A DNA stretch of 58,544 bases, filler included, from Stramenopiles sp. TOSAG23-6 (Eukaryota): the NCBI GenBank assembly GCA_900128565.1. It is 19 parts of 19 records of this genome, joined end to end, with 100 filler letters (N's around TTAATTAATTAA, not from the genome) between each part and the next. Parts side by side here need not be neighbours in the genome. Positions count along the whole stretch, not along the records: positions 6,749 to 7,772 come from LT639927.1; positions 7,873 to 8,894 come from LT639929.1; positions 8,995 to 10,016 come from LT639930.1; positions 10,117 to 11,137 come from LT639931.1; positions 11,238 to 12,258 come from LT639932.1; positions 12,359 to 13,379 come from LT639933.1; positions 13,480 to 14,499 come from LT639934.1; positions 14,600 to 21,850 come from LT636587.1; 11 more parts are not named here. One strand, written 5' to 3'. The position numbers and the translations under genes are program-made. The notes beneath the pieces are model-generated. The model ran no database searches. It was not told the DNA's origin and saw only the letters and a list, made by a program, of their open reading frames with translations. Of the stretch, positions 2,881 through 32,858 are shown piece after piece. Each line of letters opens with the position of its first letter. The first letter of the stretch is position 1.

Positions 2881-2885
2881 TCTAT

Positions 2886-6848: not shown

Positions 6849-7413
6849 ATGTCGCACTGCTGGACCAACAAGAAAAAGTCCTGGAGTTATACTACTTTCA
6901 TCAGAGTTTGTTAGGAATGGGGAGCGTTTTGCGCAATTATCGTTTTTGTTGTCTTCTTTTTCATCAACAAAATTGTCTTCTTTTTCATCCACAAAATTGT
7001 CTTCTTTTTCATCAACAAAATTGTCTTCTTTTTCATCAACAAAATCATCATCTAGAATTTCTATATCAATAATCTCTTTACTCACAATGTCATTGTCACT
7101 ATCTTCATCTTCTTTAGGTTGACCCCATTCAAACAAATCTTTGACAACACCTAAGCGAACACTTCCTTCGAAACCGGCACATAGAATGTATTTTGGAAAA
7201 ATATTTCAAAAAAAATCTAAAAAAAACTTGTTAGGTACAAAATTTCGTACGAAAAAAAAATTCGATTTTTTTTTTACCGGAAAAAATAATAAAACATACA
7301 TGGGTTGTTGTTGTGTATATAAAGTGATCTCTTCATCAACTTTTGATGTATTGTCACTCATAATTACATCTGGCACTTGTTCTCTGTATTTACCATTAGA
7401 AATCTTCTTCTTT

Positions 7414-7468
<55 letters not shown>

Positions 7469-7706
7469 CCATCATTTCATTATCATCATTATCATCATTA
7501 TCATCATTATCATATTCATCATCGGAATACTCTTCTTCATCTTCTCTTGGCAATCGCCGAGCTTTAACAATAAAACCTTTAGTATCAGAATTTTTACACA
7601 CTGAAAATACTCGAAGAGGTGAAAGGAGCGTAGGTGGTGAAGTAGAGGTACTACAAGCTACACGAATTCTTTCTGCTGTAAATGGAGATAACTCAGTAGA
7701 TGGTTC
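6849..7706 (-). CDS. FAD/NAD(P)-dependent pyridine nucleotide-disulfide oxidoreductase (flavin monooxygenase-like), internal fragment
   Basis: After removing intron 7186-7299: ..TQQQPI|LCAGFEGS.. and P.LT..DESSITPGLFLVGPAVRH, typical of bacterial Pyr_redox_3-type proteins. Confidence 0.7.
7186..7299 (-). mobile_element. GT-AT repeat intron (114 nt)
   Basis: AT|GTATGTTTT...TTTCGTACGAAATTTTGTACCTAAC...CCAAAATACAT|; restores the PILCAGF motif. Confidence 0.85.
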
Positions 7707-7925
7707 ATTTATTGTGAAAAAATATTTCAAAAAAAAAAATCTAAAAAAAATTGTTAGGTACAAAATTTCGTANNNNNNNNNNNNNNNNNNNNNNNNNNNN
7801 NNNNNNNNNNNNNNNNTTAATTAATTAANNNNNNNNNNNNNNNNNNNNNNNNNNNNNNNNNNNNNNNNNNNNTACAAAATTTCGTACGAAAAAAAAATTG
7901 GAATTTGAAAAAAAATAAAACATAC

Positions 7926-8390
7926 ATGTAAAAACGTTTTGATCTTTCGAGAACTAGCAAGGGACTGAAGTAACGCATTTAGAAAACAAGTATTACCTAA
8001 ATTTTTAATACCAGGGACTTTCACATGAAATTGTTGATCTATTTGAATTTTATTTTCATCCTTTTCTCTTGCGTTTCTAAGAAAAGAAGTACTTTGAGGA
8101 TTTTGGTTTTCCAATCTAAAACGACTGGAAACTATACCTACAGTGTTTACTCTATCAACAAATATATTTGAATCCTGGGCATCATTTTTCTTTTGAAGTC
8201 GCCGTTGACGACGTTGTTTCCGTATTTTACTATCATTTGATTTCACATCCAAAAATAGGTACGAAGATATTAGAACTACGACACCTACAGCCAATCCGTG
8301 AAAAAAACTTAGTGAAAATTCACTTTCTTTCAATGTAGTTGACGAAGAAGTTCCACTTGAAACCGGAACAGTTTCAACTGGATTAATCAT
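7926..8390 (-). CDS. Ubiquitin-specific protease (USP30-like, N-terminal TM), first exon
   Basis: Cys box PGIKNLGNTCFLNALLQSLAS; N-terminal hydrophobic anchor; donor GTATGT at 7925. Confidence 0.85.
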
Positions 8391-9047
8391 TGTAAAATAA
8401 TCAACTCCAAACTAATAAATATACATTGCGCTTGACAAAGTATGCTACCTTGTCGGCTAAATGCGTTTCTGCTTCTACCAGCTAGCTACGGCCGTATCTA
8501 CTACCGACAATATTTGTGTGTAGGCACCAAATTTTCGGCAAACGCACGAAGATTCGGACAAGAAACAAAATCGGTATGTTTTGCTTGAATTTGGAATTTA
8601 CGATAGAATTAGCAGAGAATTATAAAATAAGGATTGAATTTTATTTAAAAAAAAATTAATGAATGAATTCATCTAGCTTGATACTACTCATTGCAAAGAG
8701 TCTATAATATCATCTAGAAAGGATCACTATCGTATCTGAATAATCCAGTCCATTGTGCCATCTGCCCCAAATGTCGATAAGTATTATTGAAATATTTTAC
8801 AGCCCGTATGTATTTTGGAAAAATATTTCACAAAAAAAATTGTTAGGTACAAAATTTCGTACGAAAAATAAATTCGAAATTGAAAAAAAAATAANNNNNN
8901 NNNNNNNNNNNNNNNNNNNNNNNNNNNNNNNNNNNNNNTTAATTAATTAANNNNNNNNNNNNNNNNNNNNNNNNNNNNNNNNNNNNNNNNNNNNTACAAA
9001 ATTTCGTACGAAAAAAAAATTGGAATTTGAAAAAAAATAAAACATAC

Positions 9048-9512
9048 ATGTAAAAACGTTTTGATCTTTCGAGAACTAGCAAGGGACTGAAGTAACGCAT
9101 TTAGAAAACAAGTATTACCTAAATTTTTAATACCAGGGACTTTCACATGAAATTGTTGATCTATTTGAATTTTATTTTCATCCTTTTCTCTTGCGTTTCT
9201 AAGAAAAGAAGTACTTTGAGGATTTTGGTTTTCCAATCTAAAACGACTGGAAACTATACCTACAGTGTTTACTCTATCAACAAATATATTTGAATCCTGG
9301 GCATCATTTTTCTTTTGAAGTCGCCGTTGACGACGTTGTTTCCGTATTTTACTATCATTTGATTTCACATCCAAAAATAGGTACGAAGATATTAGAACTA
9401 CGACACCTACAGCCAATCCGTGAAAAAAACTTAGTGAAAATTCACTTTCTTTCAATGTAGTTGACGAAGAAGTTCCACTTGAAACCGGAACAGTTTCAAC
9501 TGGATTAATCAT
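9048..9512 (-). CDS. Exact duplicate of the USP exon (duplicated contig)
   Basis: Contig 8995-10016 appears identical to 7873-8894. Confidence 0.8.
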
Positions 9513-10363
9513 TGTAAAATAATCAACTCCAAACTAATAAATATACATTGCGCTTGACAAAGTATGCTACCTTGTCGGCTAAATGCGTTTCTGCTTCTAC
9601 CAGCTAGCTACGGCCGTATCTACTACCGACAATATTTGTGTGTAGGCACCAAATTTTCGGCAAACGCACGAAGATTCGGACAAGAAACAAAATCGGTATG
9701 TTTTGCTTGAATTTGGAATTTACGATAGAATTAGCAGAGAATTATAAAATAAGGATTGAATTTTATTTAAAAAAAAATTAATGAATGAATTCATCTAGCT
9801 TGATACTACTCATTGCAAAGAGTCTATAATATCATCTAGAAAGGATCACTATCGTATCTGAATAATCCAGTCCATTGTGCCATCTGCCCCAAATGTCGAT
9901 AAGTATTATTGAAATATTTTACAGCCCGTATGTATTTTGGAAAAATATTTCACAAAAAAAATTGTTAGGTACAAAATTTCGTACGAAAAATAAATTCGAA
10001 ATTGAAAAAAAAATAANNNNNNNNNNNNNNNNNNNNNNNNNNNNNNNNNNNNNNNNNNNNTTAATTAATTAANNNNNNNNNNNNNNNNNNNNNNNNNNNN
10101 NNNNNNNNNNNNNNNNTTCCAAAAACCCCCCCCCCCCCCTTTAGTTTTACCTGTCTTTTAGGCTTATGGGTTTTCATTTCTTTCTATATTTCAATTTTAT
10201 TATTACTTATTCTATTCTTCTTCTTCTTCTAAGTGATTTTTGGAGCAGGTTTGTTCTCATGAATATACGTTACACATTGGAAATCTTTAATCTTTCATTT
10301 TTTTTTGAAGCACTGGCACACCGTCACGAAACTTAATTTCAATTTAGTTCAAGGTTTATTACA

Positions 10364-11052
10364 ATGTTTCCTTGCTTTGCCACTGATAGACCAGCACAAG
10401 TAGAAACTAAAGGAGGCCATGGATTGTTACAAAATAAATTGCTAGGATACGCAGACAACCAGAACACGTTCAAGGTCGATTTGAAGGATGCACCTTGTTC
10501 CGAGCCTCTTAATTGTTGTGCAGGTTCGTTGTGTTTTTTATGTTTTGGCGCTTCTGCATGTTGGGCCCGTAAAGCCGCACTCGAGACTCTTGGAAATGGA
10601 GTGGATGATTATCGATGTTGTCAAGGATACTTTGGAGAAAGTTGTGGCTGCTGCCCAATTCCAAGATGTGAGGGACAAATGCTGGGGTTGTTACTCGAGG
10701 GTTGTTGTTGTGCAAGTATTTCACTTAGTGTGTCACGACTGTATGTGATGGATCAGAAGGTACTTCGACCTGATCCAACCGATTATCAAATAATTCAATG
10801 CAATAATTGCTTGCAAATGGCTGCATGTTTTTGTGAGGTTTTGGCAATTATTCAACCAGCTTTTCGAGACGCCGCCAATTGTATCAGCTGCATAGCAGAC
10901 GTATTTCTGATTTCTATGGCTGGTTGCATGATCGCTCAGATCAAAGCAGAACTTGACGATGGTCCTCGTATGGCAGCTATTCAACAACAACCCGGAATAC
11001 AAATGCAACAGCAATACCCTCAACCTGGAGTTGTTATGGCACAACCTGTTAT
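10364..11052 (+). CDS. PLAC8-family cysteine-rich protein, 3' partial
   Basis: CC-rich; Y.CCQGY, LE..CC...S.S.SR..VMD...L.PDP.D..II.CNNCLQ..AC.C; repeat-intron donor at 11053. Confidence 0.75.
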
Positions 11053-11237
11053 GTATGTTTTAATTTTTTTTCAAATTCGAAGTTTTTTTCGTACGAAATT
11101 TTGTACCTAACGATTTTTTTTTGAAATATTTTTCCAANNNNNNNNNNNNNNNNNNNNNNNNNNNNNNNNNNNNNNNNNNNNTTAATTAATTAANNNNNNN
11201 NNNNNNNNNNNNNNNNNNNNNNNNNNNNNNNNNNNNN

Positions 11238-12258
11238 CAAAAGCATTTATTAAATATGGACGGAAACGTAATTGCCAAGTACGCCTAGCTCTTTTACCTC
11301 GCCATTTTCCAACTGATTTTTTGTCTAACCAATACTCACAGTCAGCTATCAAATGATCTACACCGTACGTATCATCTTCTCCTGGAATTGCGGAATTTCC
11401 GTCGGAATTTCTGTCGGAATTACCATCAGAATTACCATCAGAATTTCCATCGGAATTTCCATCAGAATTTCCATCGGAAGTATTAAATTGACGTTCGAAA
11501 CGATCCGGAGTCAGTCCTGTGAATGGTAATTTATAATTTCCATTTCCTTTGGAGAGTAAAACAAAAGTATTTGTCAAATCTTCTATAAAATCACTTAGTG
11601 TCTTTCAATTCATTATAAGAAAAAAAAGGATCTACTTTTTCATGTGCAGCAGCTTTTAAAATACTTATTGTAGCATGTACAATGCTTACTGTTGATACAT
11701 CAGTTTCACCCATATCATCTTTTATATTGCTATTTGAACTATTCGAAGAAAGAGAATTTTGCGAACTATTTGATGAATTATGATCTTTGTGATCTTCATC
11801 TGATATAATTGCATTGTTACTATGTAAAGCTCGGTTAGGTTTATGATTAGGGTTTGGCTTCCTATTGTTTGAATCACTTTCTTCTGAATCTTCTCCACTA
11901 GATTTACTTTTCCCTCTTTTAATTTCTCCTATACTAGACAAAGTATCATCATCAAAGAATACATTAGTAATATTATTCTGATTATTTTGATTTGAAATTG
12001 GATATCTTCGTAAACACTTCCAGTATGGCAGTACAATAGACTCAACTAAGGCTATATCACGAAGAGCATCATCTCTAATTTGACCATGTTCTATATCCAA
12101 TGGAGGAATAGGCTCTCCTAACATTGTCCTCACACATGTATCGTAAAAAAATATTTTTTTTTATTGTTTTTTGTTAGGTACAAAATTTCGTACGAAAACG
12201 TTTTTTTGGAAATTAATGATAAAAACATACACGCCTCAGCCCCTCTAGCAATGGATCT
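11238..12258 (-). CDS. Class II histone deacetylase (HDA1/HDAC6-like), C-terminal part of the catalytic domain plus extension
   Basis: Spliced RSIARGAEAC|VRTMLGEPIPPL...ALRDI..V.....PYWKCL matches the region after LEGGY in class II HDACs; exon structure near 11580-11640 uncertain. Confidence 0.65.
12136..12230 (-). mobile_element. GT-AT repeat intron (95 nt)
   Basis: GTATGTTTTT...TTCGTACGAAATTTTGTACCTAAC...TACGATACAT; restores EACVRTMLG. Confidence 0.85.
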
Positions 12259-12358
12259 NNNNNNNNNNNNNNNNNNNNNNNNNNNNNNNNNNNNNNNNNN
12301 NNTTAATTAATTAANNNNNNNNNNNNNNNNNNNNNNNNNNNNNNNNNNNNNNNNNNNN

Positions 12359-13351
12359 GGAAGCTAGAGAAAAGAGAAGATTGGAAAGAGAAAAAAAAAC
12401 AAAAGAGCGAAGAGAAAAACAAAGACAGAATATTCAAAAGGATATCGGCGACATCCAGAAATTTCTTAATCCCGATAGTACACCAAAACTAAAATTTAGT
12501 CATGATAATACACTTGATAAACATGGTAGAGATAAGCAAGGACATACCCCTTGGTATATACTAAAGAATCGTGTTAAAAAATCAGCCCAAAAAGCTGCCC
12601 TTGTAGCACTTCTTGGTAGAGAGCTGCATCAATGGTACAACGGATATATCGAGGACGTTTGGCGCGGAATCTAATGAAGAAAAAACAAAGATCTTCTGTT
12701 GTCCTTCAATCCAACTTTCGTAGGTACAACCAGCATCTGAAATATTGTATTGCAAAATTAGGGACAGTTCAATTACAAGCGTTAAGCCGTTGTAATTATA
12801 TGAATTCTAAATGGAAAAAAAAATGTGTCGCTGCTGGAAAGTTTCAAAATGTTGGGCGAGGATATCTGGAAAGAAAAAAAATGATTTTACATCGCGAACA
12901 AACAAAAAGACTTGTAGTACATATGGTACAACAATTCAAAAAAGAACATGGTTATGACATTACGGGTGACTATGAAGCTCTAACAAAACTGTCACGTGCT
13001 GCTTATCGAATCGTGCTAAAGATGGACGCGGGTAATGAAATAAGTTCAGCAGCGGCTGATACTAACAAAGTCTCTTTCAAAGTAATGAAATTTCGAGTAA
13101 AACGTGTTTATAAAAATTTAGATTTAGGCACTCGACTCACACCAAAATTATGGAGAAATTTATGTGGAGATTTGATTGTTCCACCAAAAGTTGAAAGGCC
13201 ATGGGAGTATAGCTATACCTGGAAAAAAGAAGAAGAAGATAATAGAGATTATAGTGGCGGTGAAAAGGTTGAACGTAAAAATAAAGAAAGAACAAGAAGG
13301 GTAGCATGGACCCCTGGAAAATTTGATGCTTCAAAATTTGAAAAACGCAAT
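12359..13351 (+). CDS. IQ-motif protein with an Hsp70 subdomain IIB-like segment, fragment (frameshift near 12600-12630)
   Basis: IQ motifs VQRIYRGRLAR, LQSNFRRY, LQALSR, FQNVGRGYLER; LVVHMVQQFKKEHGYDITGD..AL.KL..AA resembles Hsp70 IIB. Confidence 0.55.
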
Positions 13352-13479
13352 GTACATTTTCATCATGAATTTTAAATCTNNNNNNNNNNNNNNNNNNNNN
13401 NNNNNNNNNNNNNNNNNNNNNNNTTAATTAATTAANNNNNNNNNNNNNNNNNNNNNNNNNNNNNNNNNNNNNNNNNNNN

Positions 13480-14499
13480 CAAAAAGTTGAGATATCTAGT
13501 GATGATATGATAATAGAATCGGATACCGCAAATGTATGTGACTCTCTGATGAATTTCATTTTTTTATACAAAGTTTTGTACCTAACGTTTTTTTTTTAAC
13601 TTTTCACAACGCATGATTCTGGAAATAATCCAACCTGTGCTGAGATACTCCAGTCAGCCGTCCCCGAAATTATTAAAGCTGCGACACAGCACATATGTTT
13701 TCATTATGAATTTGAAATTTATTTTTTATTTTTTTTACTTGAAAATATTGTATCTAACGATTTTTTTTTCTGGCATAGTTTTTCATAATATATCTTAAAG
13801 GTGACACTGGAAAATATTTTAAAACAAAAGCTGCGATATATACTCTTTTGAGACAATTACTGCGAGCATCATCTGGGAAATCGCAATTGGGTTCAAAAAA
13901 CATTAATTTCTCTAAATCTGGTCTGAAACGAAGACCATCTTTGGAGAGACTGACATCTTCATCATCCATGTCTGATCTTCTCAATGTAGAAAGTCTAAAT
14001 GACCGAGGAGGACTTCATATCATTCGCGACCATGCTTCCGCAATTATCCCTGTTTTATTGAAAAGTTTGGATGCAAAGGCTCAAGGTCCAACTTCCGGAC
14101 CAATGCGTTTAGTAGCATTAGAATTTATGCGTGAGTTGCTATCAACGAATGATTCTAAATTTATATTTCCTTTCATTTCAAAAATTGTAGAAGTTGTTGC
14201 TTTATGTATCAAAGATGAATGGTATAGAATAGTTGCCGAGTCTCTTCGCGTAATTTCACGAATTGTTCAACTTATTCGACCCATTGATGCAGACACTGGC
14301 AAATTTCTAGAAATATCTTCTACATTTTCTCCGGATAAGTTCGCGATGCCACTTTTTATGGCTGTTAGGCCATGTTTGCGAAAGAGAGATCTGGATCAAG
14401 AAGTTAAGGAATGTGCTATCACTGCTTCTGCGTTAATTTTATCACGATTTGGAAATAATTTGGATGACCTTTTTGAAAAAACAGGGATAATTGCGGAAG
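13480..14499 (+). CDS. CAND1: Cullin-associated NEDD8-dissociated protein 1 (HEAT repeats), internal fragment
   Basis: VP.IIKA...LK....KTK...LL.QL, L.AL.F, D.WYRIVAESL.V, D.DQEVKECAI; requires introns 13534-13614 and 13693-13793. Confidence 0.85.
13534..13614 (+). mobile_element. GT-AT repeat intron (81 nt)
   Basis: AT|GTATGT...TTTTGTACCTAAC...TTTTCACAACGCAT|. Confidence 0.75.
13693..13793 (+). mobile_element. AT-AT variant of the repeat intron (101 nt)
   Basis: CAC|ATATGTTTT...TTGTATCTAAC...TTTCATAATATAT|CTT; restores the CAND1 frame (ATQH|LKGD). Confidence 0.75.
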
Positions 14500-14654
14500 N
14501 NNNNNNNNNNNNNNNNNNNNNNNNNNNNNNNNNNNNNNNNNNNTTAATTAATTAANNNNNNNNNNNNNNNNNNNNNNNNNNNNNNNNNNNNNNNNNNNNC
14601 GTACGTAATTTTGTACCTAACGATTTTTTTTTGAAATATTTTTCCAAAATACAT

Positions 14655-15459
14655 GTGGTTTGATATCAATCGGAGATTATTTAGTATCTGTTAACAAAAT
14701 TTCCGTTGAAAAAATGGAATTTTATAAAGTACTTCAAATGATTCGCAATGCTGAACGACCAATGACACTAAAATTTAGAAGATTTCACACAAATGAAACA
14801 AAAAATATAAATGTAACAAATGTAGAAAATATTCAAAATCATGATAAAATCTCAGCCACTTCAAAAGAAAACCCTAACAACACTAATAATTGTCCACCTG
14901 GAAACTTACAACCGATGTCGGGAAAAACATTGCAAACAAAAAATGGAAATTCCTATTATTCACCTTCTTGGCAATATTTATGGCCTTTTTGGGTTCTAGA
15001 CGTTACAAATGGAATTATATATGACTTACAATGTAGTTTGAAACAAGTTGTCCGTGTTGCTGCCGATCCCATCCAAATAATGTAGATTTTCAAAATTGAA
15101 TGTTTTACAACCATGTTTTTAATACGAAATTTTGTACCTAATGATTTTTTTTACCAAAATATATACATATTTTTTCACAATACATTCCTTTTTTACAACG
15201 ACGTAAAATACATCCGATGCATTCAATTACTGAAAATCCAGTTCAACTTATTTGCGAGTATTTAAAAACTCTAATTCGCGAAAAAACATCGATAAAGACA
15301 TTAAATTATATTTTTTCAAGCATGTACGCTTTCATCATTTCAATTTCATTTTTTTTTATTATGAAAATTCTGTACCTAACAAATTTCAAAACATTTCATA
15401 ACAAAATATTTTTCACATCTCATAAATATTGCTTTCAAGTCATGGCTTTCAGATTATAT
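14655..15459 (+). CDS. RMC1/C18orf8 (Mic1)-like protein fragment with a PDZ-like segment
   Basis: GLISIGD.L..VN...RPMTLKF (PDZ); YSPSW...P..VLD...G..Y.L...L...D...I.FLQRR resembles the RMC1 N-region; introns 15082-15185 and 15324-15423. Confidence 0.55.
15082..15185 (+). mobile_element. GT-AT repeat intron (104 nt)
   Basis: AT|GTAGATTTT...ACGAAATTTTGTACCTAAT...CACAATACAT|; restores QIIPFLQRR. Confidence 0.8.
15324..15423 (+). mobile_element. GT-AT repeat intron (100 nt)
   Basis: AT|GTACGC...TGTACCTAAC...TTTCACATCTCAT|; restores FSSINIAFK. Confidence 0.7.
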
Positions 15460-15555
15460 GTATGTTTTATTTTTTTTTAACAAAAAAATCGATTTTTTTT
15501 CGTACGAAATTTTGTACCTAACGAATTTTTTTTGAAATATTTTTCCAAAAAACAT
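15460..15555 (+). mobile_element. GT-AT repeat intron joining two different genes (probable chimeric junction)
   Basis: Near-consensus copy; upstream exon is RMC1-like in phase 2, downstream exon is RRP5 in phase 0. Confidence 0.75.
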
Positions 15556-18500
15556 GCAATACGTATGAGCACACTTTTTTCTTCAGGAACAGAAGTTAAT
15601 AATGCTTTGGTGCTTCATAATATTAGTGCTAAAAAGAATCACGGTGCATCTGTATTAATTACTTTAAAACCTTTATTTTTACAAAGTAGTGTACTGCCTA
15701 GTTCAATAGAAGATCTTTCGGTTGGTTCTATTGTACCTGCTTTTGTTTCTGGTGTGAAAACGTTTGGCGTTTTTATTCGATGTTTTGGTAACTTGACGGC
15801 TCTTGCTCCTAGATCCGAAGTTTCTGATTCGTTTGTGTCGGATCCAAATGAATTCTTTTCTGTTGGACAATCTGTCCGTGCAATTGTTACGGATATAACT
15901 GATGGAAGAGTTGTCGTGTCTTTGAAACCTTCCTTATGTTCCAGTGCTGAAGGTGATCACGATGCATTATTTTTATCGAGTATGTTGAAAGAAGAATCTC
16001 TGATGGGTCCTACTGTAGATGTAGATGATGATTCTATGAATATTGACAAACCAAATGCACAGGGGAAAACTCTGGAAATCGGTTCATGTGTTGAAGGTAA
16101 GATTATATTTGTGAAAGAGTATGGACTCATCATGGAATTAGAAGGAGGTCACATGGGATTAGTAATGAATCATCACGCAGCAGGAAAAGGTGTAGATGAC
16201 ATGAATATGAAACATAAATGTCGTGTCTTGCATGTATGTTTTATTTTTTTTTTTTTACAAAAAAATCGAATTTTTTTTCGTACGAAAGTTTGTACCTAAC
16301 GATTTTTTTTTGAAATATTTTTCCAAAATACATGTAAACTCTGAAAACGGCGTTGTTGATATTTCATTGAAGCCGGATCTTGTAAAGGCAGGTAAGAAGT
16401 CCAAGCGCAAATTACAAGCAACATCTGTAAAAAATATGACTATTGGTAGTATAATATCTGTCAAAATTGAACTGGTCAAAGAGGGTCGATATTTTATTAC
16501 TTCTATCCCTTCATGCAAAGGTGTCGTTGCTCTTGCGTCTATTGCCGGGTACAATGGACCTTCAAGCAAAATTTCTGCTTTAGTGGCTGGTGATGAATGT
16601 CAAATGCGCGTGGTTAAGCTACCAGATGCTAATTCCTCTCAGTTACTTTTGGCATCGGTGTCAGGCCGATCTCGCAAGACGTCTTCAAAAGAGTCCAACG
16701 TATTAACCGAAAAAAAATCCAATTCAATACTTCTTGAAGATGTGACAATTGGAATGACATTAAAAGGTAAAATTGTTTCTATCTTAGACTCTCAGATGAA
16801 TGTATCATTATTTGGCATTCAAGGCTATGCATGTGGTCGCGTTCACATCACTGAGGTAAGCGACGTGTCTGATAAAAATCGTGTGGTAGAAGCAATATCA
16901 TTGAAAGAAGGTGAAATGGAAGAACAAGAAATCGATCACCCTTTTGAAACTCATTGCAATGGTGAGATTATCAATGTCAAAGTCATTGGTATTCGCCATT
17001 CCCAGGAGAAAGGTAAACGAACATTTGAATTGTCTTTACGACCCTCTGTGATGAAACTTGAAGAAGGTAAAATTGGGACTCCGCGTTTTTCATGGGGTGA
17101 AAAGTCATTGCCGAAAAATTTACCATCAAAGAGCCAAGAAGTACAAGCTATTGTTACGAGTGTTGGCAGTGAACATATTAGTGTTGCTCTTTCTACAAGT
17201 GTTCATGGTGAAATTTCTATGATTGATGTCTCTCAGAATCAAAAGGTTGTTGAAGAACTCCGTCAACGGTTTACTCCAGGACAAATGCTTTCTTGTTTTG
17301 TTTTATCTGTTGATTCTAAAAAGCATCGCGTGGCTTTATCACTGCAAAAACATGATATAACTGCTGGTATTTCTGTCATGGGTCGTATCACCACCATTAA
17401 CCGCGGTGAAGGTGCTGCTCGTGGACAGTTAACTTCACTTTGTGTTCAATTACCAGGTAGACGTTATGGTCGTGTGTGTATCACTGAACTTACAGATGAG
17501 GATAAATGGGTGTCGATGCCATTGAAACAAAAAAAGTTTTCTGCTGGAGAGTTAGTGCGTTGTCGTGTTCTGAGTATATCCAAAAAACATGGTGGTTATC
17601 ATATTGATTTATCTTTACGCCCATCTATTTTTTCACTCTCTGTCAGCGATGTGACAAATCTTACACCAAATACTGCTAATATTGTTGTTGGACAACTTGT
17701 AAAAGGATATGTTCTTAATACAACTGTTAAAGGATGTTTTGTCAAAATGGCAGGTGGTGCAATTGGCCGCGTATTTGTCAGGAATCTTTCGGATTCATTC
17801 ATCAAGAATGTTAGTTCAGCTTTTCCTCCAGGAATGCTTGTAACTTGTCGTGTGATTTCTGCATCTATGGTTGCCGGAAAACGTCGTATTGAACTTTCAT
17901 TAAAAGAGTCTGTTGTGAATGGAAGTGGGGAAGAAGGTAAAATGTCAAAAAGTTTTACGGATTTCGAAAAAGGTGCAATTGTCACCGGTCGCGTTCGTCG
18001 TGTCACCAAATTTGGTGTTTTTGTTCGTTTGACTAACAGTGAGGTGGATGGTCTTTGTCACATGACTCAAGTTTCAGATGATAAAGTAGAAAATCCTGAA
18101 GCATTAGCTTCAATGTTTGATCAAGGTGATTTGGTTAAAGCAAAAATTTTGCGCATGGATATGGAGAAGAAGAAGTTATCTCTAGGTCTGAAAGCATCTT
18201 ATTTTGATGACGAAGACACTGAACTTATGGATGAAAGTAGTGACGATGAAGAGACCAACGCCATTTCTGAAAATTCTTCCGAAAATGAAGAAGATATGGA
18301 TATTGTTGAAAACGATATCGATGTTGACGACACTATTAAAACTACAACAAATCATACTAACAGTAGTGATGAAGATTCAGAAGATTCAGAAGATTCAGAA
18401 GAAGATAGTACTGATGAAGACAGCGAGGAAGAAGAAGGCACCAAAGAAAAAAATGCCCCTGTTGTCTCATTCGACACAGGGCTTGATTGGGGTGGTGATT

Positions 18501-19525: not shown

Positions 19526-19634
19526 TCCAATGATATTGAATGAGTTTAAATTAAAAGTATGATTATACCATGAATAAAAAATAAAAAAGGGAGTTTAAAA
19601 AATATTGGAATGCACATTTATTAATTTTTAAATT

Positions 19635-20587: not shown

Positions 20588-21797
20588 ATGCTGAAACAAC
20601 TTTCTCAACGAGCGGGATCTCTGCCATCCTCTGGAATTAGAAAGGTAATGGCGTTATCAGCAGAACTTGCAAGGCAAGGAAATGCTGTAATCCACCTTGA
20701 GGTTGGCCAACCTGGTATAGAAACGGCACAGCATATACAAGAAATAGTCAAGTCTGCTCTCCAAGACCCCAAAAATCTGGGTTACTGCTCAAATTTCGGT
20801 CTTGATTCTACTCGCAAGGCTGTGGCTGACCACTACAATCATAGATTTCTTTCCGAGAATATAGTTGTTCAACCTGAAAATGTTCTTATTACACCTGGAG
20901 CTGTTTTTGCAATAGCCAGTGGGTTTATGGCAACACTAGATGTAGGAGACGAAGTTTTAATTCCAGATCCTGGATGGGTAAACTATAGCATGACAGCAAA
21001 AATGTTGTCAGCCATTCCTGTCGCGTATAATTTGAAAAGTGAAGACTCTTGGCAAGTTCAGTTGTCAGAAATACAATCAAAAATCACGGATAAAACCAAA
21101 ATGATTGTGTTATGTTCTCCTGGTAATCCCACAGGTGTACGTGTTCACCATTCAATTCAAATTTCTACCTAATCAAAATATTTTGCATATAACAAAAAAA
21201 CAATAGAATTTGGTATTTTTCTCAAAAAACAGGCCGTCTTTTCTCAAGAAATTCTTGACGAAGTTCTTGGATTAGCACACAATCATGGTTTATATGTCAT
21301 TGGTGATGAAATATATAGTGCAATTAACTACATCAATACTGAAATGTCTGAAATTACATCAGACAATTATCATTCGCCAAGCCTCATGCAGTGTTCTAAT
21401 TACAACCCCAAAGCTCATTTCGTTGTTAGTGGTGTTTCCAAAGCCTGGGCTATGACAGGTTTTAGAGTGGGTACGCTTGTCGCGGATAGTGAAATAATAT
21501 CAAATATGGATAAATTAGTCGAATCTTTTGTTTCTTGCGGAGTTCCATTTAGCCAACACGCTGCGAGTGTTGCATTTGATCCATTGAATGTCTCTTCCAT
21601 AGAATTTGTGAATAGAGCTGTATGTTTCAATTTCGAAATTTTAATTTTTTTTATAGTCAATTTTGTACCTAACGAATTTTGTTTTTACTAAAAAAAAATA
21701 TTTTTTTACAATATATGTTCAAGAGTATTTGAGTAATCGAGATATTGTAGTTTCAATTTTAAATTCATACAATATTCAAACGATTATTCCAGAGGGT
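20588..21797 (+). CDS. PLP-dependent class I/II (aspartate-type) aminotransferase, 3' partial
   Basis: IHLEVGQP, GDEVLIPDPGW.NY, SPGNPTG|AVF, DEIY, SKAWAMTGFRVG (PLP lysine), IPEG; introns 21137-21232, 21620-21716 and 21798 to contig end. Confidence 0.92.
21137..21232 (+). other. GT-AG intron resembling the repeat family (96 nt)
   Basis: GTACGT...TTTCTACCTAAT...TATTTTTCTCAAAAAACAG; restores NPTG|AVFS. Confidence 0.85.
21620..21716 (+). mobile_element. GT-AT repeat intron (97 nt)
   Basis: GCT|GTATGTTT...TTTTGTACCTAAC...TACAATATAT|GTT; restores RA|VQEYLSNRDIV. Confidence 0.85.
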
Positions 21798-23347: not shown

Positions 23348-26300
23348 TCACAATTTACGTCGAAGTCTTGTGGATCGTACATGAATTATGAAAAAATATT
23401 TCAAAAAAAAAACTAAAATTTGTTAGGTACAACATTTCGTACGAAAAAATAAATTAGATAAAAAATTGAAATGAAAACGTACACTTATTGCGTGTGCCAA
23501 TTCAAGTTCCGACTCCATAGACCAACGTTCTGAACGTCTTGCCAATTCTATTTTTGCTTCTCTAATACGTTTCAGTTTGATCATAAATATATCTTCTAAA
23601 ATTTCCAATTGTGACTACAGTGTGAAAAAAATATTATTTTTGAGGAAAAAAATCGTTAGGTACAAAATTTCGTACGAAAAAAAAATAATTTGAAATTCAT
23701 AATGAAAACGTGCCTGACTAAGATGTGAAAAATTAGCCGAATTTATGTCAATTATATCCTCTAACTGTAATGCTGTAGCAACTGCTTTTGGATGTGATTC
23801 TTCTAATTTATTTTGCAATGACAAAAGTCTCTCACTTGTTGTCGTTCTGGAGTCGTTACACTGAGGATGAACTTTTCCAAACTTTGGTCGAATTCGATAT
23901 CCCAAATGATTCTGGAATATATTGGACTTGATTCCCCCAAACCTAAGCTTTTCACTAAATGTACTCGTTATAGATCTTGGATTATTTCCATGCCATTTAG
24001 AGCTAGAATTACTCACATGCATTAAATTACTTGAACTTGTGGTAATGAGGGTATCTACTGATGGATTCTCCTTCCTTGATTTGTTATTTATTGATGTCGA
24101 AAGATATTGATTAAATAGCCTAGGTGTTGATGTATAAGACCCAGAACTACTATAGAGTTTACTATTGTTACCTTTTACATTATTAAATGTGGACTTCGCG
24201 CTCATTACNCGAAATTCATTTGGTAATGTNGAAGGTCGCAACTTGCCATTATTCGAAACTAAATCTCTTTGAGATGAAATTCCTAAATTGCGAATAAAAC
24301 GAAATCCTTTAGAATTGTCTGGCCCTTTTGAGTATCGAAGCTCACTTGAATATTTGTTTTTGTTGTTTCTGCTACGTAAATCTTGTTCAGTTTGGTTATN
24401 ATTCCAAAGTGACTTTGAACTTTGTTTCCTATTTGTCATTGAATGTTCAAATTGATGAGACTGTTGTGCTATAGATGACATACTTAAAGTAGAATTATCA
24501 AAAATATTTGATTTTTCAAATGCTGTAGACTCCAATTCATCATTATGNACTAAGTCAATATCTTGTACGTCATTTTGTTTATGGACTAAGTCAATATCTT
24601 GTACGTCATTTTGTTTACTATGATTCGGTTTACTATGAATGAGTTTACTATGATTTGGTTTACTATGATTGAGTTTACAATGATTCAGGTTACTATCATT
24701 TAGTTTACAATGATTCAGGTTACCATCATTTAGTTTACTATCATTTAGTTTACAATGATTCAGGTTACTATCATTTAGTTTACTATGATTCGGTTTACGT
24801 AGTGACACCAAATTAGGCTTTTGTTGCTGATTTGGANCTGCCTTGCATTCACGTNTCTGCTCTATTCGAAAGTTTTCCTGATTAAACTCTTCATTTTGTA
24901 CTACTTCAGAAAACTTCGTGACAGACCTGCGACGTTTTTCAATATTAGTCCGTTCGTCCATATTATCAATATTACCAAAATCTTTTTGCTTTTTCAATCC
25001 TCGTTTTACAACTTGCATCCAGCCAGTCATTTCATCTTTCCTATTACCTAATGTAACTGCATGCAAATTTTTCTTTGGTGTTGGTTTTGGCACAGGAACC
25101 GGATGACTTGCTGAAGAGAGATGCAATCTACCAAGAAAGGACATTGCATATAAATTACTGCTATCTATGTCCGCATCAGCACAATGCTCCATTTCACTAT
25201 CTTCATCTGAAATTATATCTGATTCTTGATCATTTTCACCCCTCTCATCAATAATGTTGTCTTTGATACCTTTTTGTTTTGTTTCTTCTTTATTTGCTAT
25301 GTTTTCTCCCGTATTTTTCTGTATTCCTTCTTTATTTTCTAGCTTTACACATTGATTGATATCCATCTGTTTATTTGCATTCTTACAAATATTTAAACTA
25401 TCTTTCTTACAAACATTTAAACTATCTTTAGTTTCATTCCGTACTCTTTCACTGTTCTCCTCTTTTGTACCATGAATTTCTTTAAAAACACTACTATTTA
25501 CGATGGGATTTCCATTGACATCTACATGAGTAAATGTGTGTTCGATATTATGAATAGCATTGGATATTGTATTGCTTGTTTTTTTTTCATTTTCAGATTT
25601 TTGCTGCTCTCCAAATTTGTGATAACATGTATTTTGGAAAAATATTTCAAAAAAAATCGTTAGGTACAAAATTTCGTACACTACACAAATCAAAATCAGA
25701 ACACACATCACATTTAAATCTAGATCCGCAAAGATCTGGTACAGCAGCTGTTACATCCATACTATAACAACCATCACATGTTACTCCAATATGAATATCA
25801 CTTCCAGAACTACTTTTACGATAGCAACTATTTGAAGTATTTGATACTTTTTTCTTAATTTTTTTCTTGCTACCTTTTTTATTTCCTTTTTTTCCATTTT
25901 TCTTTTTACTTTTTTTCTTTTTTTTATTGCCAGTAGAACTTTTATTTTCATCGCTTATACCAAAAATAGCCAACATTTTGCTCGCAGATTCCTTCTCCAG
26001 TTTTTGCCACTCTTTTTTAAGTAGATAAAAACATTTTTCACCAGGTACAAGATTTGTTTTATCATCGATTTCCATAATAGATCTGCCAAGTATATTGTTT
26101 TGTCTAGAATGTCTATTACTATGATTGAAATTCTTTTTTTTCGTTTTGTTTCCACAATCAAGATTTTGAAGCTGTAACTGATTTTGAATGTCTTCAAGAG
26201 CAGTTTGGCCAAAATTATTTCGAATTGTTATATCACAACCAAACGAAAGCAAGACTTTCAANCAAGCTGGCAATTGAAAAGATGCTGCTAAATGTGCAGC

Positions 26301-29297: not shown

Positions 29298-30866
29298 ATC
29301 AACATTATCAACATTATCAACATTATCAACATTATCAACATTTTTATCATCATCAACATTATCAACATTATCAACATTATCAACATTATCAACATAATTG
29401 TCGTTTCTATTATTTCTATTGAGACTATTAGGGTTAGGGATACTATTTAGTGACGTCATTTCTTCATAATTTAATGGTCCAACTTTATCAAATAATTTGA
29501 CAAACGATTGATGGCATAATTTCTGTTGCTTTTTTACTGTCTTTATATCTTCTTTTTCTTGTATAATTTGTCTAGGGTTAGGGTTTTCTGTAGGATTTAT
29601 TGATTTTTTTTGAATATTTTTTGAATATTTTTCTTCCAAATGTTTCAACTTTGTAGTAGAAGGATTCAAGTTTGTTTCATCTATTTCTTCAAAATCATTT
29701 GCTGTATTTGTATATGAAGATGACTGGGTATCATCCGACACCAAAATTTTACTAAAAAAATTGGATATTAATTTATGAAATGTAAAAAATATATTTTTTT
29801 TTGAAATAATTTTTTTTGTTAGGTACAAAATTTCGTACGAAACCAAAAAAAAATTAGGGTTAGGGTTTAAAAAAAAAACGTACATGCTTCATTGTCTTTC
29901 TTCTCCATCGAGTTGTGGCCCATAAAACTGATAATTCTTTAAGATCATCCTCAGTAGATAAATCTATTTGTTCCACTACTGCACTTTGTACTAAAAATTT
30001 ATCTGGTTTTCGGTGAAAAAATGTCGAATCTTCAGAAAGTTGTGTAATCAATTTTCGTACTTGACTTTTTCGTATTATTAACTTTTTCGTGAAGAAATAT
30101 TTATATATATATTTTGTATACAGTTAGATATAATATTTTGTTTTTTAGTCGAAAGTGTAAAAAACAAATCTTTTTTGTTTAGGTACAAGATTTTTCTAGA
30201 AGAAAATAACAACAAAAAATAGTACATTTGAATTTTTGTACTAAAAAAAAAAATCTTTTTTGTTTTTTTGTTTTTTTGTTTAGGTACAAAATTCACTACG
30301 AAAAAAAATTAGAAAAAAATTAGAAAAAAAAAAAAAAAACGTACTTGAATTTCAATCCATTTTTTTGGACCTACAATTCCCATCGTTGGATGAACTTGGT
30401 ATCTCTTTGGCATTGTTGTTTTAATTTTGAATGCTAATGATTTACTGGGTAGTTTATTTTCGAGTAAAAGTCTACCGATGGCCATTTGATCTTTTTCTAA
30501 AGCAAAATCAATTTCAAAATTTGGAGATATTCGGAGTGAATTAGGGTTAGGGTTATTTGGCTTTCTAATTGATTCAAACGTTTTTGTTCTTTGTCTAAGT
30601 CTTTTTTTAGTTAGAGGGTTATTATATTTTGTTTCTTTATCACTTTGTATTTCAATGTCTTTAATATTGTTGGTTGTTTTGTTTGTGTAATCTTGTTTAG
30701 TTTCGTTTGCAGTTACATTTGTTCTTATATCTTTTACTACTTGAGGGTTAATCGTATTATTTCGTTCATTTTGAGTGCTAATTGTATTATATGGTTCATT
30801 ACACTCTGACTCGTCAGGGACAGCACTTTTTGAAGTGCTTACAGTAGACTGTATGCTTTGAGACAT
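29298..30866 (-). CDS. MSP (VAP-like) domain protein, 3' partial
   Basis: L.N.....LAFKIKTT.PKRY.V.P..G.V and DKFLVQS; introns 30082-30344 (GT-AG) and 29775-29883 (GT-AT). Confidence 0.8.
29775..29883 (-). mobile_element. GT-AT repeat intron (109 nt) containing a CCCTAACCCTAA insertion
   Basis: CAT|GTACGTTTT...TTTCGTACGAAATTTTGTACCTAAC...TTTACATTTCAT|AAA; in-frame join. Confidence 0.75.
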
Positions 30867-31900: not shown

Positions 31901-32858
31901 AGGAAGCACAAACTTTTTCAGAATCTTCTAAAGTTCTCATAACATCTATTAACTATGATATTGAAAATATTTCAAAATATCAATTTTGTTGTTAGGTATA
32001 TAAATTTCATAGTTAAAAAAAAAAAAAAAAAAAAAAATCTGTTTTCGTTTTCTATGAAAATTTCGTATGAAAAAAAAACAAATTCATGATGAAAACAAAC
32101 ACCTTCAACACTATTATTTTCCTTAAATGCAATTGTAGTTTCAATGCCATCAACCAAGAGATCTGTCACTTCAGTAGCCACTTCTTGCAAGACTTCATTC
32201 ACTGTGAAAAATATTTTTTTTTTTTAGTAAAAAAAAATCGTTAGGTACAAAATTTCGTACGAAAAAAAAATCGAATTTCAAAAAATTAAAACATACGTCT
32301 TCCTCCAGCTCTTCTTTTGTTTTATCTTTATTTTCTTTTAAATGTGTTTTTTGAACAATTGTAGTTGTACCAAATATAAAATCTTTTACGCCAATAGAGT
32401 ATACATGATATTTCAAAGAATTATTTTTTTTTTGTTAGAATTTTAAAATTTAATTTTTTTTTTTTTTTACTATGAAAATTTCGTACCAAACCAAAAAACC
32501 AAAAAACCAAAAAACCAAAAAAAAAAAAAATTGTAAAACAAACATACACATATCCAACATCAAATAAATCTTTCACTGCTCTAAATGCTTTAATTAGATC
32601 TAATATACCATGCTTATTATCTTTTTCTTTAAATGCTGTAAACGCAGCTAAACTGTCTCTTGCAGCATCAGCAGCATCAATACTCATATCTCTTAAAACA
32701 CTTTCCGAAAGCTCCGATGCTGTGTTGTATGAAAATATTTAAAAAAAAAAATTTGTTAGGTACAACATTTCATAGTAAAAAAAAATCATAGTAAAAAAAA
32801 AAAAAAAAAAAAAAAAAATTTTTTTTGTTTTTTTTTTGGGAAAAAATTTTTTTAATGT

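What the first reader, a model, noticed from the sequence alone, without database searches (positions are those of the whole stretch)
7186..16333. The introns look like a MITE-type introner: AT[GTAT...ATAC]AT
Seen: the best-conserved copies read AT|GTATGTTTT...AAAATAC AT|, i.e. an imperfect terminal inverted repeat (GTATGTTTT versus the reverse complement of AAAATAC) flanked by AT on both sides, with an internal palindrome TTTCGTACGAAA just before the branch motif. By my count the exon dinucleotide before the donor is AT in 22 of 33 scored donors; three exceptions are synonymous CAC/GAC codons (13693, 32296, 33602). Copies range from near-identical (7186, 11053, 15460, 16234) to degenerate (49543). 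Established: introner elements in Micromonas and Aureococcus are non-autonomous DNA transposons that use their ends and target-site duplication to create splice sites. Inference: the element inserts at AT, duplicates it, and the duplicated AT becomes the acceptor, so splicing restores the pre-insertion mRNA exactly. This would be an ongoing intron-gain burst that explains the AT acceptor.
Basis: partly seen in the sequence, partly recalled or inferred. Interest (0 to 1): 0.85.

Follow-up and report, generated by a model that had tools for sequence, protein, structure and literature searches.

The report
Repeated introns ending in AT
Nearly every intron in this marine protist's DNA is a copy of one roughly 100-base repeated element that starts with GT but ends with AT instead of the near-universal AG, so it looks like a self-spreading intron family that existing gene models have missed.

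Summary
The window is 19 short contigs of an AT-rich marine eukaryote. A public CDS label points to a MAST-3-like stramenopile. A family profile finds 35 distinct loci in 58 kb. All lie in genes, and none is clearly antisense. Copies range from 91% identical to barely recognisable.

They behave as introns cut GT...AT. All 23 curated introns have a phase that joins open reading frames. Three conserved-domain junctions fit only this cut: PLC-Y, a carnitine-dehydrogenase-like enzyme and RRP5. Of 30 acceptors, 28 are AT and 2 are AG. AT precedes 19 of 34 donors, against 12% background.

A seawater metagenome holds thousands of contigs carrying the element. Two copies sit in a bacterial-type gene, so they were gained.

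The MITE reading with a 2-bp AT duplication is plausible but unproven. The inverted repeat is short (ATGTAT/ATACAT). AT matches across loci, not within them. Two exon ends can never have been AT. No empty site, antisense copy or transposase was found. RNA data gave no spliced read.

Public gene models force GT-AG here and mis-splice. My searches found no report of a genome dominated by GT-AT introns.

The parts
7186..7299 (-). Complete family intron, cat|GTATGTTTT...AAATACAT|tct, 114 nt, phase 2.
   Evidence: E 6.8e-15.
7707..7772 (-). 3' part of a copy, cut by a contig end. Ends ...CACAATAAAT|gaa.
7873..7925 (-). 5' part of a copy at a contig start, acat|GTATGTTTT. The identical duplicate contig has it at 8995-9047.
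8808..8894 (-). 3' part of a copy, ...CCAAAATACAT|acg. The duplicate contig has it at 9930-10016.
11053..11137 (+). 5' part of a copy, ttat|GTATGTTTT, cut by a contig end.
   Evidence: E 1.6e-14.
12136..12230 (-). Complete intron, cgt|GTATGTTT...CGATACAT|gtg, 95 nt.
13534..13614 (+). Complete intron, aat|GTATGTGA...CAACGCAT|gat, 81 nt.
13693..13793 (+). Family intron with A at +1 (AT...AT), cac|ATATGTTT...TAATATAT|ctt. An internal AG is skipped.
14600..14654 (+). 3' part of a copy at a contig start, ...CCAAAATACAT|gtg.
15082..15185 (+). Intron, aat|GTAGATTT...CAATACAT|tcc, 104 nt, in the gene upstream of or continuous with RRP5.
15324..15423 (+). Intron, cat|GTACGCTT...CATCTCAT|aaa, 100 nt.
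15460..15555 (+). Near-consensus intron, tat|GTATGTTT...AAAAACAT|gca, 96 nt.
   Evidence: E 7.5e-16.
16234..16333 (+). Near-consensus intron in RRP5, cat|GTATGTTT...AAATACAT|gta, 100 nt. The homologue HMM favours exactly this net length.
21137..21232 (+). Degenerate family-like intron with GT...CAG. It splits NPTG|AVFSQ of an aminotransferase.
21620..21716 (+). Intron, gct|GTATGTTT...CAATATAT|gtt, 97 nt. A further 5' part lies at 21798-21850.
23615..23713 (-). Family member with GC...TAG, the only case with AG before the donor. Its neighbour 23381-23482(-) is GT...AT.
25631..25679 (-). 49-nt intron made of the element's 3' half only. The donor is the internal GTACGA and the acceptor is AAAAT|. 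It restores the ZZ-finger motif DLCS|TC.
29775..29883 (-). Intron, cat|GTACGTTT...CATTTCAT|aaa, 109 nt. It contains CCCTAA repeats.
32197..32296 (-). Intron, gac|GTATGTTT...CAGTGAAT|gaa. A CAG 5 nt upstream would give an in-frame TGA.
33472..33602 (-). Intron, cac|GTATGTCA...CAATATAT|ata, 131 nt.
39520..39610 (+). Very degenerate intron, ctg|GTACGTAC...GACACAT|ga. The downstream CAG would be out of frame.
42241..42566 (+). Two introns, 42241-42330 and 42463-42566. Both are tat|GT...AT|g.
43658..43753 (+). Intron in a bacterial-type carnitine-dehydrogenase-like gene, gat|GTACTT...ATACAT|gcg. It is the best of 644 candidate cuts. A further donor lies at 43832.
49543..49654 (+). Degenerate copy in the PLC gene, tat|GTACGTTT...CTATACAT|act, 112 nt.
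50076..50178 (+). Intron in the PLC Y domain, aac|GTACAT...ATACAT|ga. The Pfam profile runs 72 | split codon | 74 across it.
53744..53840 (+). Intron, gat|GTATGTTT...TAATACAT|acg, joining ORFs of 808 and 430 codons.

Best explanation
This is a high-copy, introner-type family of roughly 100-nt spliceosomal introns in an AT-rich marine protist, labelled MAST-3-like.

Each copy carries four parts:
- a yeast-like donor, GTATGTTTT;
- an internal CGTACG palindrome;
- an extended branch site, TTTTGTACCTAAC, a median of 40 nt from the 3' end;
- a T-run followed by the tail ...TTTTTC(A/C)CAATACAT.

The copies are removed as GT...AT introns. Removal restores the coding sequence without adding or losing codons.

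The family spread by insertion into genes. The most likely route is a small non-autonomous DNA element that prefers (C)AT(G) sites and duplicates AT, so that one AT copy serves as the acceptor. The host spliceosome accepts YAT as well as YAG.

Shown here: the family, its abundance, its sense orientation, the GT...AT boundaries by frame and by homology, the AT enrichment, and gain inside a bacterial-type gene.

Inferred: actual splicing (no RNA junction was seen), DNA-level transposition, and AT as a duplication.

My confidence by sub-claim: GT-AT intron family about 0.9; gained by insertion about 0.75; DNA element with AT duplication about 0.4.
For: Family and copy number:
- Of 80 nhmmer hits with E up to 10, 37 have E<0.01, which is 35 loci once the duplicate contig is counted once.
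- The exact 12- and 13-mers occur 14 and 18 times against about 0 expected.
- The best pair of copies is 91% identical.
- Six of the 13 short contigs and several long ones end inside the element.
- In an independent seawater DNA run, 6318 contigs laid on the 7.2-kb stretch. Summed depth was 35,327 over the element against about 8 over unique sequence. The tool warns that this is not a copy number.

Boundaries:
- All 23 curated introns have a phase in which the cut joins open frames. The strict automatic test passes 17 of 23.
- The Pfam PI-PLC-Y profile runs 72 | split codon | 74 across 50076-50178.
- Among 644 in-frame candidate cuts in the carnitine-dehydrogenase-like gene, 43658-43753 scores best at 297.5 bits. 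The public GT-AG model scores 275.2 bits and ranks 445th.
- All top RRP5 variants keep the 100-nt net length.
- Internal AGs at 13693 and 32296 would break the frame.

Ends:
- 28 of 30 acceptors are AT and 32 of 34 donors are GT.

Flanks:
- AT precedes 19 of 34 donors, p 1e-9.
- C is at -3 in 14 of 32 donors and G at exon +1 in 17 of 30 acceptors, which gives a palindromic CATG-like site.
- The only exon end reading AG belongs to one of the two AG-ending introns. Exon end equals intron end in 14 of 25 against 12.0 by permutation, p 0.037.

Gain:
- Introns 43658 and 43832 lie in a gene whose organism-named relatives, among the 120 listed, are all bacterial.
- That gene lies next to a BKACE gene.

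Orientation:
- 31 of 37 hits are clearly sense and none is clearly antisense.
Against: - No spliced RNA read was seen. The RNA runs cover the exons only about 2-7 fold. One RNA-library contig (21397-21673) runs unspliced into intron 21620. The ratio of element depth to exon depth in RNA libraries resembles that in DNA. These libraries therefore show neither splicing nor its absence.
- The AT match is across loci only, and the -3 position shows no within-locus match.
- The permutation p of 0.037 rests on a single AG/AG case.
- Exon ends at 21137 and 50076 cannot have been AT.
- Near-consensus copies with non-AT exon ends exist: 2317 CT, 12230 GT, 32296 AC and 21798 GT.
- The inverted repeat is 6 nt exact. 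It overlaps sequence that splicing itself constrains, and folding does not beat shuffles.
- No antisense or intergenic copy, no empty site and no transposase turned up in 58 kb.
- The 22-mer core is absent from JGI metagenome contigs, GTDB genomes and IMG/VR, so no outside copies could be studied.
Confidence: 0.5

Rival explanations
1. The same mobile intron family spreads through RNA. The excised intron reverse-splices into other transcripts at CAT|G-like junctions, followed by reverse transcription and recombination. On this reading AT before the donor is the spliceosome's exon preference, the analogue of canonical CAG|G, and not a duplication.
For: - All clear copies are in genes and in sense orientation (31 of 37 clearly sense, 0 clearly antisense).
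- There is no within-locus duplication signal beyond AT.
- The flank pattern C-A-T|...|G mirrors the canonical protosplice site with one base changed.
- Exon ends that can never have been AT (21137, 50076) are no problem for this model.
- Fungal introners are interpreted this way (passage read).
Against: - In the survey read, most non-fungal introner families show DNA-transposon signs.
- A 49-nt intron made of the 3' half only (25631-25679), and introns with internally duplicated cores (31730-31900, 32722-32982), show DNA-level rearrangement. This does not exclude an RNA origin.
- The window is so gene-dense that missing antisense copies say little.
Confidence: 0.25
2. There has been no recent mobility. 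The likeness among introns reflects strong lineage-specific constraint on extended splicing signals, or homogenisation, as in organisms with reduced spliceosomes.
For: - The best-kept blocks are the functional ones: the donor, TTTTGTACCTAAC and the 3' tail.
- Even very degenerate introns keep these blocks.
Against: - Spacers are also shared, for example ATTTTTTTTTTTTACAAAAAAATCGA in 16234, 15460, 2317, 42463 and 43832.
- Assemblies break inside the element.
- Thousands of metagenome contigs match the element at 90% or better.
- Introns sit in a bacterial-type gene.
Confidence: 0.1
3. These are minor-spliceosome (U12-like) introns, which are known to tolerate odd 3' ends. The family would have expanded as U12-type introns did in Physarum.
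For: - GT-AT made up 17% of the 1,014 non-canonical U12-type introns (out of 1,425 non-canonical introns) in Physarum, and a transposon origin with a TA repeat was proposed there (passages read).
- GTATGTTT matches 6 of 8 positions of GTATCCTT, and TACCTAAC loosely resembles TTCCTTAAC (my comparison).
Against: - The donor is an exact GTATGT (U2, yeast type), and the branch is TAC(C)TAAC.
- The U12 consensus [G/A]TATCCTT is not met at +5 and +6 in any of 34 donors.
- The branch A lies a median of 40 nt from the 3' end.
- No snRNA could be examined, because no genome is held.
Confidence: 0.07
4. The true boundaries are AT...AC, that is |ATGTATG...ATAC|AT. This gives the same mRNA wherever AT precedes the donor.
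For: For the 19 of 34 donors preceded by AT the two readings cannot be told apart. In one search the cuts 43656-43659 all give the same product.
Against: The 15 of 34 donors not preceded by AT still start with GT (or AT or GC) and still end in AT. Only GT...AT fits all of them.
Confidence: 0.05
5. The elements are removed from DNA rather than RNA, like the TA-bounded eliminated sequences of ciliates. Alternatively, they are artefacts of single-cell amplification or assembly.
For: The elements are short and AT-rich, they are bounded by a direct dinucleotide repeat, and one copy of that repeat is retained.
Against: - Full spliceosomal signals are present: donor, branch and T-run.
- The element sits in place in independent metagenome DNA contigs, for example pieces 15529-16226 and 16308-18202 ending in it.
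- No DNA joint skipping an intron appears among the 15 listed joints. A further 285 were not shown.
Confidence: 0.03

Closest known systems
Introners of marine algae and other protists (Micromonas, Aureococcus, Symbiodinium, Chrysochromulina and others). I read passages of PMC9860276 and recall Huff et al. 2016.
   Same: Many near-identical short introns in one genome. They lie in genes, their removal restores the frame, and one splice site may be supplied by the duplicated target. Short inverted ends are present.
   Different: Known families use GY...AG, whereas this one ends in AT in 28 of 30 acceptors. The duplication is not shown, because only an across-locus AT match exists. Essentially every intron found in the window resembles the family.
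Non-canonical introns of the tunicate Fritillaria borealis (PMC13326754; abstract and passages read).
   Same: A genome-wide departure from GT/AG that includes some 3' AU ends. The authors link it to introner transposons with weak splice sites, and the splicing machinery has adapted.
   Different: In Fritillaria 95% of introns have diverse ends, and both 5' and 3' ends vary. Here the donor stays a strong GTATGT and a single alternative 3' dinucleotide dominates. Whether U2AF is changed could not be tested.
Expanded U12-type introns of Physarum polycephalum (10.1101/2020.10.12.336362; passages read).
   Same: Mass intron gain. A transposon origin is proposed, with inverted ends and a 2-bp direct repeat (TA). 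GT-AT occurs among the boundaries.
   Different: The motifs differ: GTATCTTT and a TTTGA branch 9-12 nt from the 3' end there, against GTATGT and TACCTAAC about 40 nt from the end here. In Physarum GT-AT is a small minority.
Invasive intronic elements of Amoebophrya, and nonconventional introns of hemistasiid diplonemids and euglenids (PMC7789003 seen only in search listings; PMC12621601 abstract).
   Same: Marine protists with many non-canonical introns. The intron ends can pair.
   Different: Those introns lack conserved terminal dinucleotides and rely on extensive end pairing. Here the ends are conserved and pairing is only 6 nt, no better than shuffles.

Membership tests
Introner (intron-generating repeat family) | Many introns of one genome share sequence along their whole length. 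| tested here: met
   35 loci have nhmmer E<0.01 in 58 kb. The alignment shows shared spacers. Thousands of matching contigs occur in a metagenome.
Introner (intron-generating repeat family) | The copies are spliced introns, shown by transcript evidence. | tested here: inconclusive
   Frames and homology fit. No RNA junction was seen.
Introner (intron-generating repeat family) | Recent gain: the intron is absent at the same site in relatives or alleles. | tested here: inconclusive
   Two copies lie in a bacterial-type gene. No close relative or empty allele could be obtained.
MITE-type DNA transposon | A target-site duplication with within-locus matches. | tested here: inconclusive
   AT flanks 19 of 34 donors, but the match is across loci only. 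The -3 position matches in 9 of 25 against 8.8 expected. One AG/AG case exists.
MITE-type DNA transposon | Terminal inverted repeats. | tested here: inconclusive
   ATGTAT/ATACAT is a 6-nt exact match, followed by TTTT/AAAA across a bulge. Folding z-scores run from -1.39 to +1.35. The ends coincide with the splice signals.
MITE-type DNA transposon | Copies occur in both orientations and outside genes, and an autonomous partner with the same ends exists. | tested here: not met
   In this window, 0 of 37 hits are clearly antisense. No transposase domain appeared in the ORFs scanned. The window is small and gene-dense, so this is weak evidence.
U12-type (minor) intron | A 5' motif [G/A]TATCCTT and a branch TTCCTT[G/A]AC (as stated). 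| tested here: not met
   At donor position +5, G occurs in 28 of 32; at +6, T occurs in 30 of 32. The branch is TACCTAAC.
Canonical U2-type GT-AG intron | A terminal AG. | tested here: not met
   2 of 30 acceptors are AG and 28 are AT. The donor and branch are U2 and yeast-like.
Euglenozoan nonconventional intron | Variable borders, with extensive pairing that brings the ends together (abstract). | tested here: not met
   The borders are conserved. End pairing is 6 bp and folding is not beyond shuffles.

The most novel reading that the evidence does not exclude
In this stramenopile lineage a single transposon-like element has supplied essentially the whole intron complement. Its 2-bp AT target duplication has become the standard 3' splice site. 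The major spliceosome now routinely performs GT-AT splicing, and the terminal G and U may pair in a geometry like the A-C of AT-AC introns (that last point is recalled knowledge and inference). This would be the first genome where a transposon's insertion chemistry has rewritten one of the two most conserved dinucleotides in eukaryotic gene structure.
Probability: 0.35. Interest if true: 0.92.

Novelty: new variant of a known kind. Interest (0 to 1): 0.8.

Why it matters
- **Splice-site recognition.** The AG at intron 3' ends is close to universal. A free-living lineage in which over 90% of the introns seen end in AT, while keeping a textbook GTATGT donor and a TACTAAC-like branch, would be a natural experiment on how the 3' splice site is recognised.
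- **How introns are gained.** It would be a clear case for asking whether transposons create introns by lending their duplicated target as a splice site.
- **Existing gene models are wrong.** Public CDS models of this organism force GT-AG. They read through intron sequence or delete conserved residues (P0001; P0121). Protein sets and functional inferences for this abundant uncultured group are therefore likely to be systematically damaged.

Tried and rejected
- **Whole genome.** None is held for this window.
- **RNA evidence.** Three metatranscriptome runs and one DNA run were laid on 14600-21850. RNA cover of the exons is thin. No contig crosses an intron in spliced form among the rows shown (15 of 300 joints were listed). 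One RNA-library contig enters intron 21620 unspliced. This shows neither splicing nor its absence.
- **Outside copies.** The 22-nt core was not found in JGI metagenome contigs, GTDB genome contigs or IMG/VR.
- **Orthologues.** An RRP5 search in metagenome contigs gave 5 loci at only 33-45% identity, covering the C-terminal part. They were useless for intron positions.
- **Aminotransferase junction.** Testing 21619|21717 against solved structures failed, because the alignment stops before the junction. PDB searches with short exons found nothing usable.
- **Longer duplications.** A 3-bp (NAT) or 4-bp (ATGT) duplication is rejected. The -3 match is at chance, and exon 2 starts with GT in only 4 of 25.
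- **Whole-element hairpin.** Not supported.
- **Possible antisense copy.** The match at 36074-36173(-) is not significant (E 0.18 and 0.46; sequence read).
- **Left unresolved and not counted.** The 3' end of intron 30344; the long introns at 32722-32982 and about 31960-32101; a donor near 36932; and a possible GTAAGT...ACAG intron at 6556-6647 that abuts a contig end.
- **Supplements.** They might list this lineage.

Full report
**What the window is.** The 58,544 bases are 19 contigs joined by N44-TTAATTAATTAA-N44 linkers. Thirteen contigs of about 1.02 kb occupy 1-14499, and six of about 7.2 kb follow from 14600. One 1,022-nt contig is present twice, at 7873-8894 and 8995-10016. GC content is about 0.24-0.38. 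The DNA is eukaryotic and gene-dense. Genes identified include RRP5, a class I aminotransferase, a PLC, an Arp2/3 p34 subunit, CAND1-like and LRR proteins, and a SET/Tudor protein. Independent seawater metagenomes and metatranscriptomes hold the 14600-21850 contig. A public CDS with an EukProt label containing 'MAST32' is the gene model of this very RRP5 locus. I use that label only as a hint that the lineage is a MAST-3-like stramenopile.

**The observation.** It holds. The best copies read AT|GTATGTTTT(A/T-rich spacer)AAATCGA(T)nCGTACGAAATTTTGTACCTAACGA(T)nGAAATATTTTTCCAAAATACAT|. The palindrome TTTCGTACGAAA occurs 14 times against 0.01 expected. TTTTGTACCTAAC occurs 18 times against 0 expected.

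I built a profile from 18 of my 23 aligned introns. I left out i39520, i21137, i33602, i43658 and i49543 as too divergent or too gapped. The profile gives 80 hits with E up to 10, and 37 of those have E<0.01. That is 35 loci once the duplicated contig is counted once, or about one per 1.6 kb. The best pair of copies (16234 and 15460) is 91% identical. Most others are 50-84% identical to their nearest copy, and i39520 reaches only 36%. Blocks outside the splice signals are shared even by degenerate members, including the GT...AG intron at 21137. One example is CATTATGAATTTCAAATT after the donor.

**They are introns cut GT...AT.** I curated 23 complete introns by coordinates. All 23 have a phase in which removing GT...AT (or AG in two cases) joins open frames.

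The strict automatic test asks whether the longest upstream and downstream frames agree. It passes 17 of 23. The six failures are explained as follows:
- Three have flanks shortened by a contig end or a 26-codon exon (13534, 13693, 12230).
- One donor was first placed wrongly. The correct donor is gat|GTACTT at 43658, not cag|GTAACT at 43668.
- One acceptor was first placed wrongly. The intron is 25679-25631, which yields the ZZ-finger motif DLCS|TC.
- One precedes a 10-codon last exon that I cannot verify (23482).

Homology then fixes the junctions to the codon:
- The Pfam PI-PLC-Y profile ends at position 72 on the last residue before 50076 and resumes at position 74 on the first full codon after 50178. 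The split codon takes position 73.
- In the carnitine-dehydrogenase-like gene I scored all 644 in-frame, stop-free donor/acceptor pairs in a 50 x 60 nt grid. The scoring HMM was built from the listed homologues of 290-360 aa. The best product, at 297.5 bits, comes from 43658-43753. The slides 43656-43659 give the same mRNA. The GT...AG cut used by the public model scores 275.2 bits and ranks 445th of 644.
- For RRP5 I used an HMM of 45 full-length homologues chosen from the 120 listed. Every top variant keeps the 100-nt net length of 16234-16333. Variants differing by one codon lose 4-5 bits.

Where an AG lies between the branch and the end, using it would shift the frame (13693) or create an in-frame TGA (32296). 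Median intron length is 100 nt, and the branch A lies a median of 40 nt from the 3' end.

**End statistics.** Of 34 donors, 32 start with GT, one with AT (13693) and one with GC (23713). Of 30 acceptors, 28 end in AT and 2 in AG. The last three bases are CAT in 19, TAT in 6 and AAT in 3.

I found these introns by starting from the branch-core motif, so introns outside the family could be under-counted. One possible GTAAGT...ACAG intron at a contig end (6556-6647) and four unresolved introns were left out.

**Abundance.** Contigs repeatedly break inside the element. In a seawater DNA run from a different study, 6,318 contigs laid on the 7.2-kb stretch, whereas eight long pieces suffice for the unique sequence. 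Summed depth over the element reaches 35,327 against about 8 elsewhere. The tool warns that this sum may include other organisms and is not a copy number. I take it as 'thousands of element-bearing contigs'.

**RNA.** The three RNA runs cover the exons only 2-7 fold. No listed contig crosses an intron in spliced form. One RNA-library contig enters intron 21620 unspliced. The element-to-exon depth ratio in RNA libraries is similar to that in DNA. This cannot tell pre-mRNA from DNA carry-over. Splicing is therefore inferred and not observed.

**Is AT a target-site duplication?** AT precedes 19 of 34 donors. The background is 0.121, giving p of 1e-9. A is at -2 in 23 of 32 donors and T at -1 in 25 of 32. 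Position -3 is C in 14 of 32, and the first downstream exon base is G in 17 of 30, so the restored site looks like the palindrome CATG. The composition at -4 mirrors the complement of +2. This fits a symmetric DNA integration site. It equally mirrors the canonical CAG|G protosplice pattern with G changed to T.

The test that would show a duplication is a within-locus match at a variable position. It is negative at -3 (9 of 25 against 8.8 expected). At the dinucleotide level it is 14 of 25 against 12.0 (p 0.037). That rests on the single intron whose exon end and intron end are both AG (23713). The introner survey states that across-intron matches alone cannot separate a duplication from an insertion preference (passage read).

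Of the 15 non-AT exon ends, five are explainable by synonymous change. These are 13693, 32296 and 33602 at -1, and 12230 and 31900 at -2. Two can never have been AT. At 21137 the end is the Gly of NPTG. At 50076 a T would make TGA.

The inverted repeat is ATGTAT/ATACAT plus TTTT/AAAA across a bulge. It coincides with the splice signals. Folding energies of six copies are within -1.39 to +1.35 sd of shuffles.

**Orientation.** An automatic flank-ORF rule of 37 hits sense, 3 'anti' and 3 ambiguous. All six of the latter lie where both strands are open (the low-complexity contig 6749-7772) or where flanks are short. None has long ORFs on the opposite strand only. By my rough estimate from the ORF list, only about 4 kb of the window lies between long ORFs. 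The absence of intergenic copies is therefore uninformative.

**Evidence for gain.** The gene at 42881-43884 is closest to bacterial carnitine and 3-hydroxyacyl-CoA dehydrogenases, at 44-56% identity. Every hit that carries an organism name among the 120 listed is bacterial. NCBIfam's best models are L-carnitine dehydrogenase equivalogs, below cut-off because only one exon was scanned. The gene sits head-to-head with a BKACE gene. From recalled knowledge, that pairing is known from bacterial carnitine catabolism. If the pair came from bacteria, the family introns at 43658 and 43832, both preceded by AT, were gained afterwards. The homologue HMM shows the insertion added and removed no codon.

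**Existing annotation.** Public model P0001 drops 14 residues of an S1 domain and translates 15 residues of intron 16234-16333 (...AAGKGFVPNDFFLKYFSKIHVNSENG...). P0121 replaces ALWRE with VLT. Both follow from forcing GT-AG.

**What is known.**
- Searches for GT-AT introns as a genome-wide class returned only incidental mentions.
- Two papers on MAST genomes contain no statement on non-canonical introns in their main text (term searches).
- The two introner surveys do not mention MAST or stramenopiles in their main text. One says that families with unfamiliar splice sites were discarded unless transcripts confirmed them.
- The closest cases are algal introners, Fritillaria borealis (95% non-GT/AG introns, some 3' AU, duplicated U2AF), Physarum U12-type introns, and hemistasiid diplonemids (abstract).

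**Mechanism.** I commit to the following. This is a mobile, non-autonomous element that carries the donor, the branch site and the T-run. It inserts at (C)AT(G) sites. It is removed as a GT...AT intron by a major-type spliceosome that accepts YAT. DNA transposition with an AT duplication is the most likely route at about 0.4. An RNA route stands at about 0.25. AT use extends to old, degenerate members and coexists with AG. It is therefore a property of the lineage's spliceosome, not merely a by-product of the youngest insertions.

Noticed in passing
window 16234-16333 and 43658-43769; proteins P0001 and P0121: Public CDS models of these loci force GT-AG introns. They translate intron sequence or delete conserved residues, so the organism's published protein set is probably systematically mis-spliced.
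   Followed up: partly
window 40617-41654(-) and 42881-43884(+): A BKACE gene and a carnitine-dehydrogenase-like gene lie head-to-head. The nearest named relatives of the dehydrogenase are all bacterial. This is a candidate horizontally acquired catabolic pair. The dehydrogenase now carries host-type introns, while BKACE is a single 346-codon ORF.
   Followed up: partly
window 7873-8894 and 8995-10016: Two contigs in the concatenation are identical (1,022 nt). The contigs also fall into two length-sorted series, as if two assemblies or lists had been joined.
   Followed up: no
window 25631-25679(-); 31730-31900(-); 32722-32982(-): There are rearranged family members. One is a 49-nt intron made of the element's 3' half, using the internal GTACGA as donor. 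Others are long introns with a tandemly duplicated branch-core segment (66-nt period at 31755-31900).
   Followed up: partly
window 29775-29883(-), about 33300(-), about 35790(+): Short telomere-like CCCTAA/TTAGGG repeats occur inside an intron and at two other internal places.
   Followed up: no
window 38484-39008(-): This ORF has an RNase H / RVT_3-like domain (Pfam E 2.4e-13). It could be a retroelement remnant or a host RNase H. No link to the intron family was seen.
   Followed up: no
window 58491-58544(-): A tRNA gene is cut by the window end (Rfam 40.3 bits). It was the only Rfam hit in the window, and no snRNA was found.
   Followed up: no
window 4425-5554, 24576-24813, 7410-7470: There are long in-frame tandem repeats in coding sequence: 97-nt units, 15-nt units encoding KLNDS/KPNHS-like repeats, and (GTT)n. 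They make both strands open in places.
   Followed up: no
window 14654>15458 and similar joints in run X4 (table 5): Many metagenome contigs align from an element's 3' end (…ACAT) straight to an element's 5' start (AT GTATG…), with unknown sequence between. These could be very short exons between neighbouring copies, or tail-to-head arrangements.
   Followed up: no
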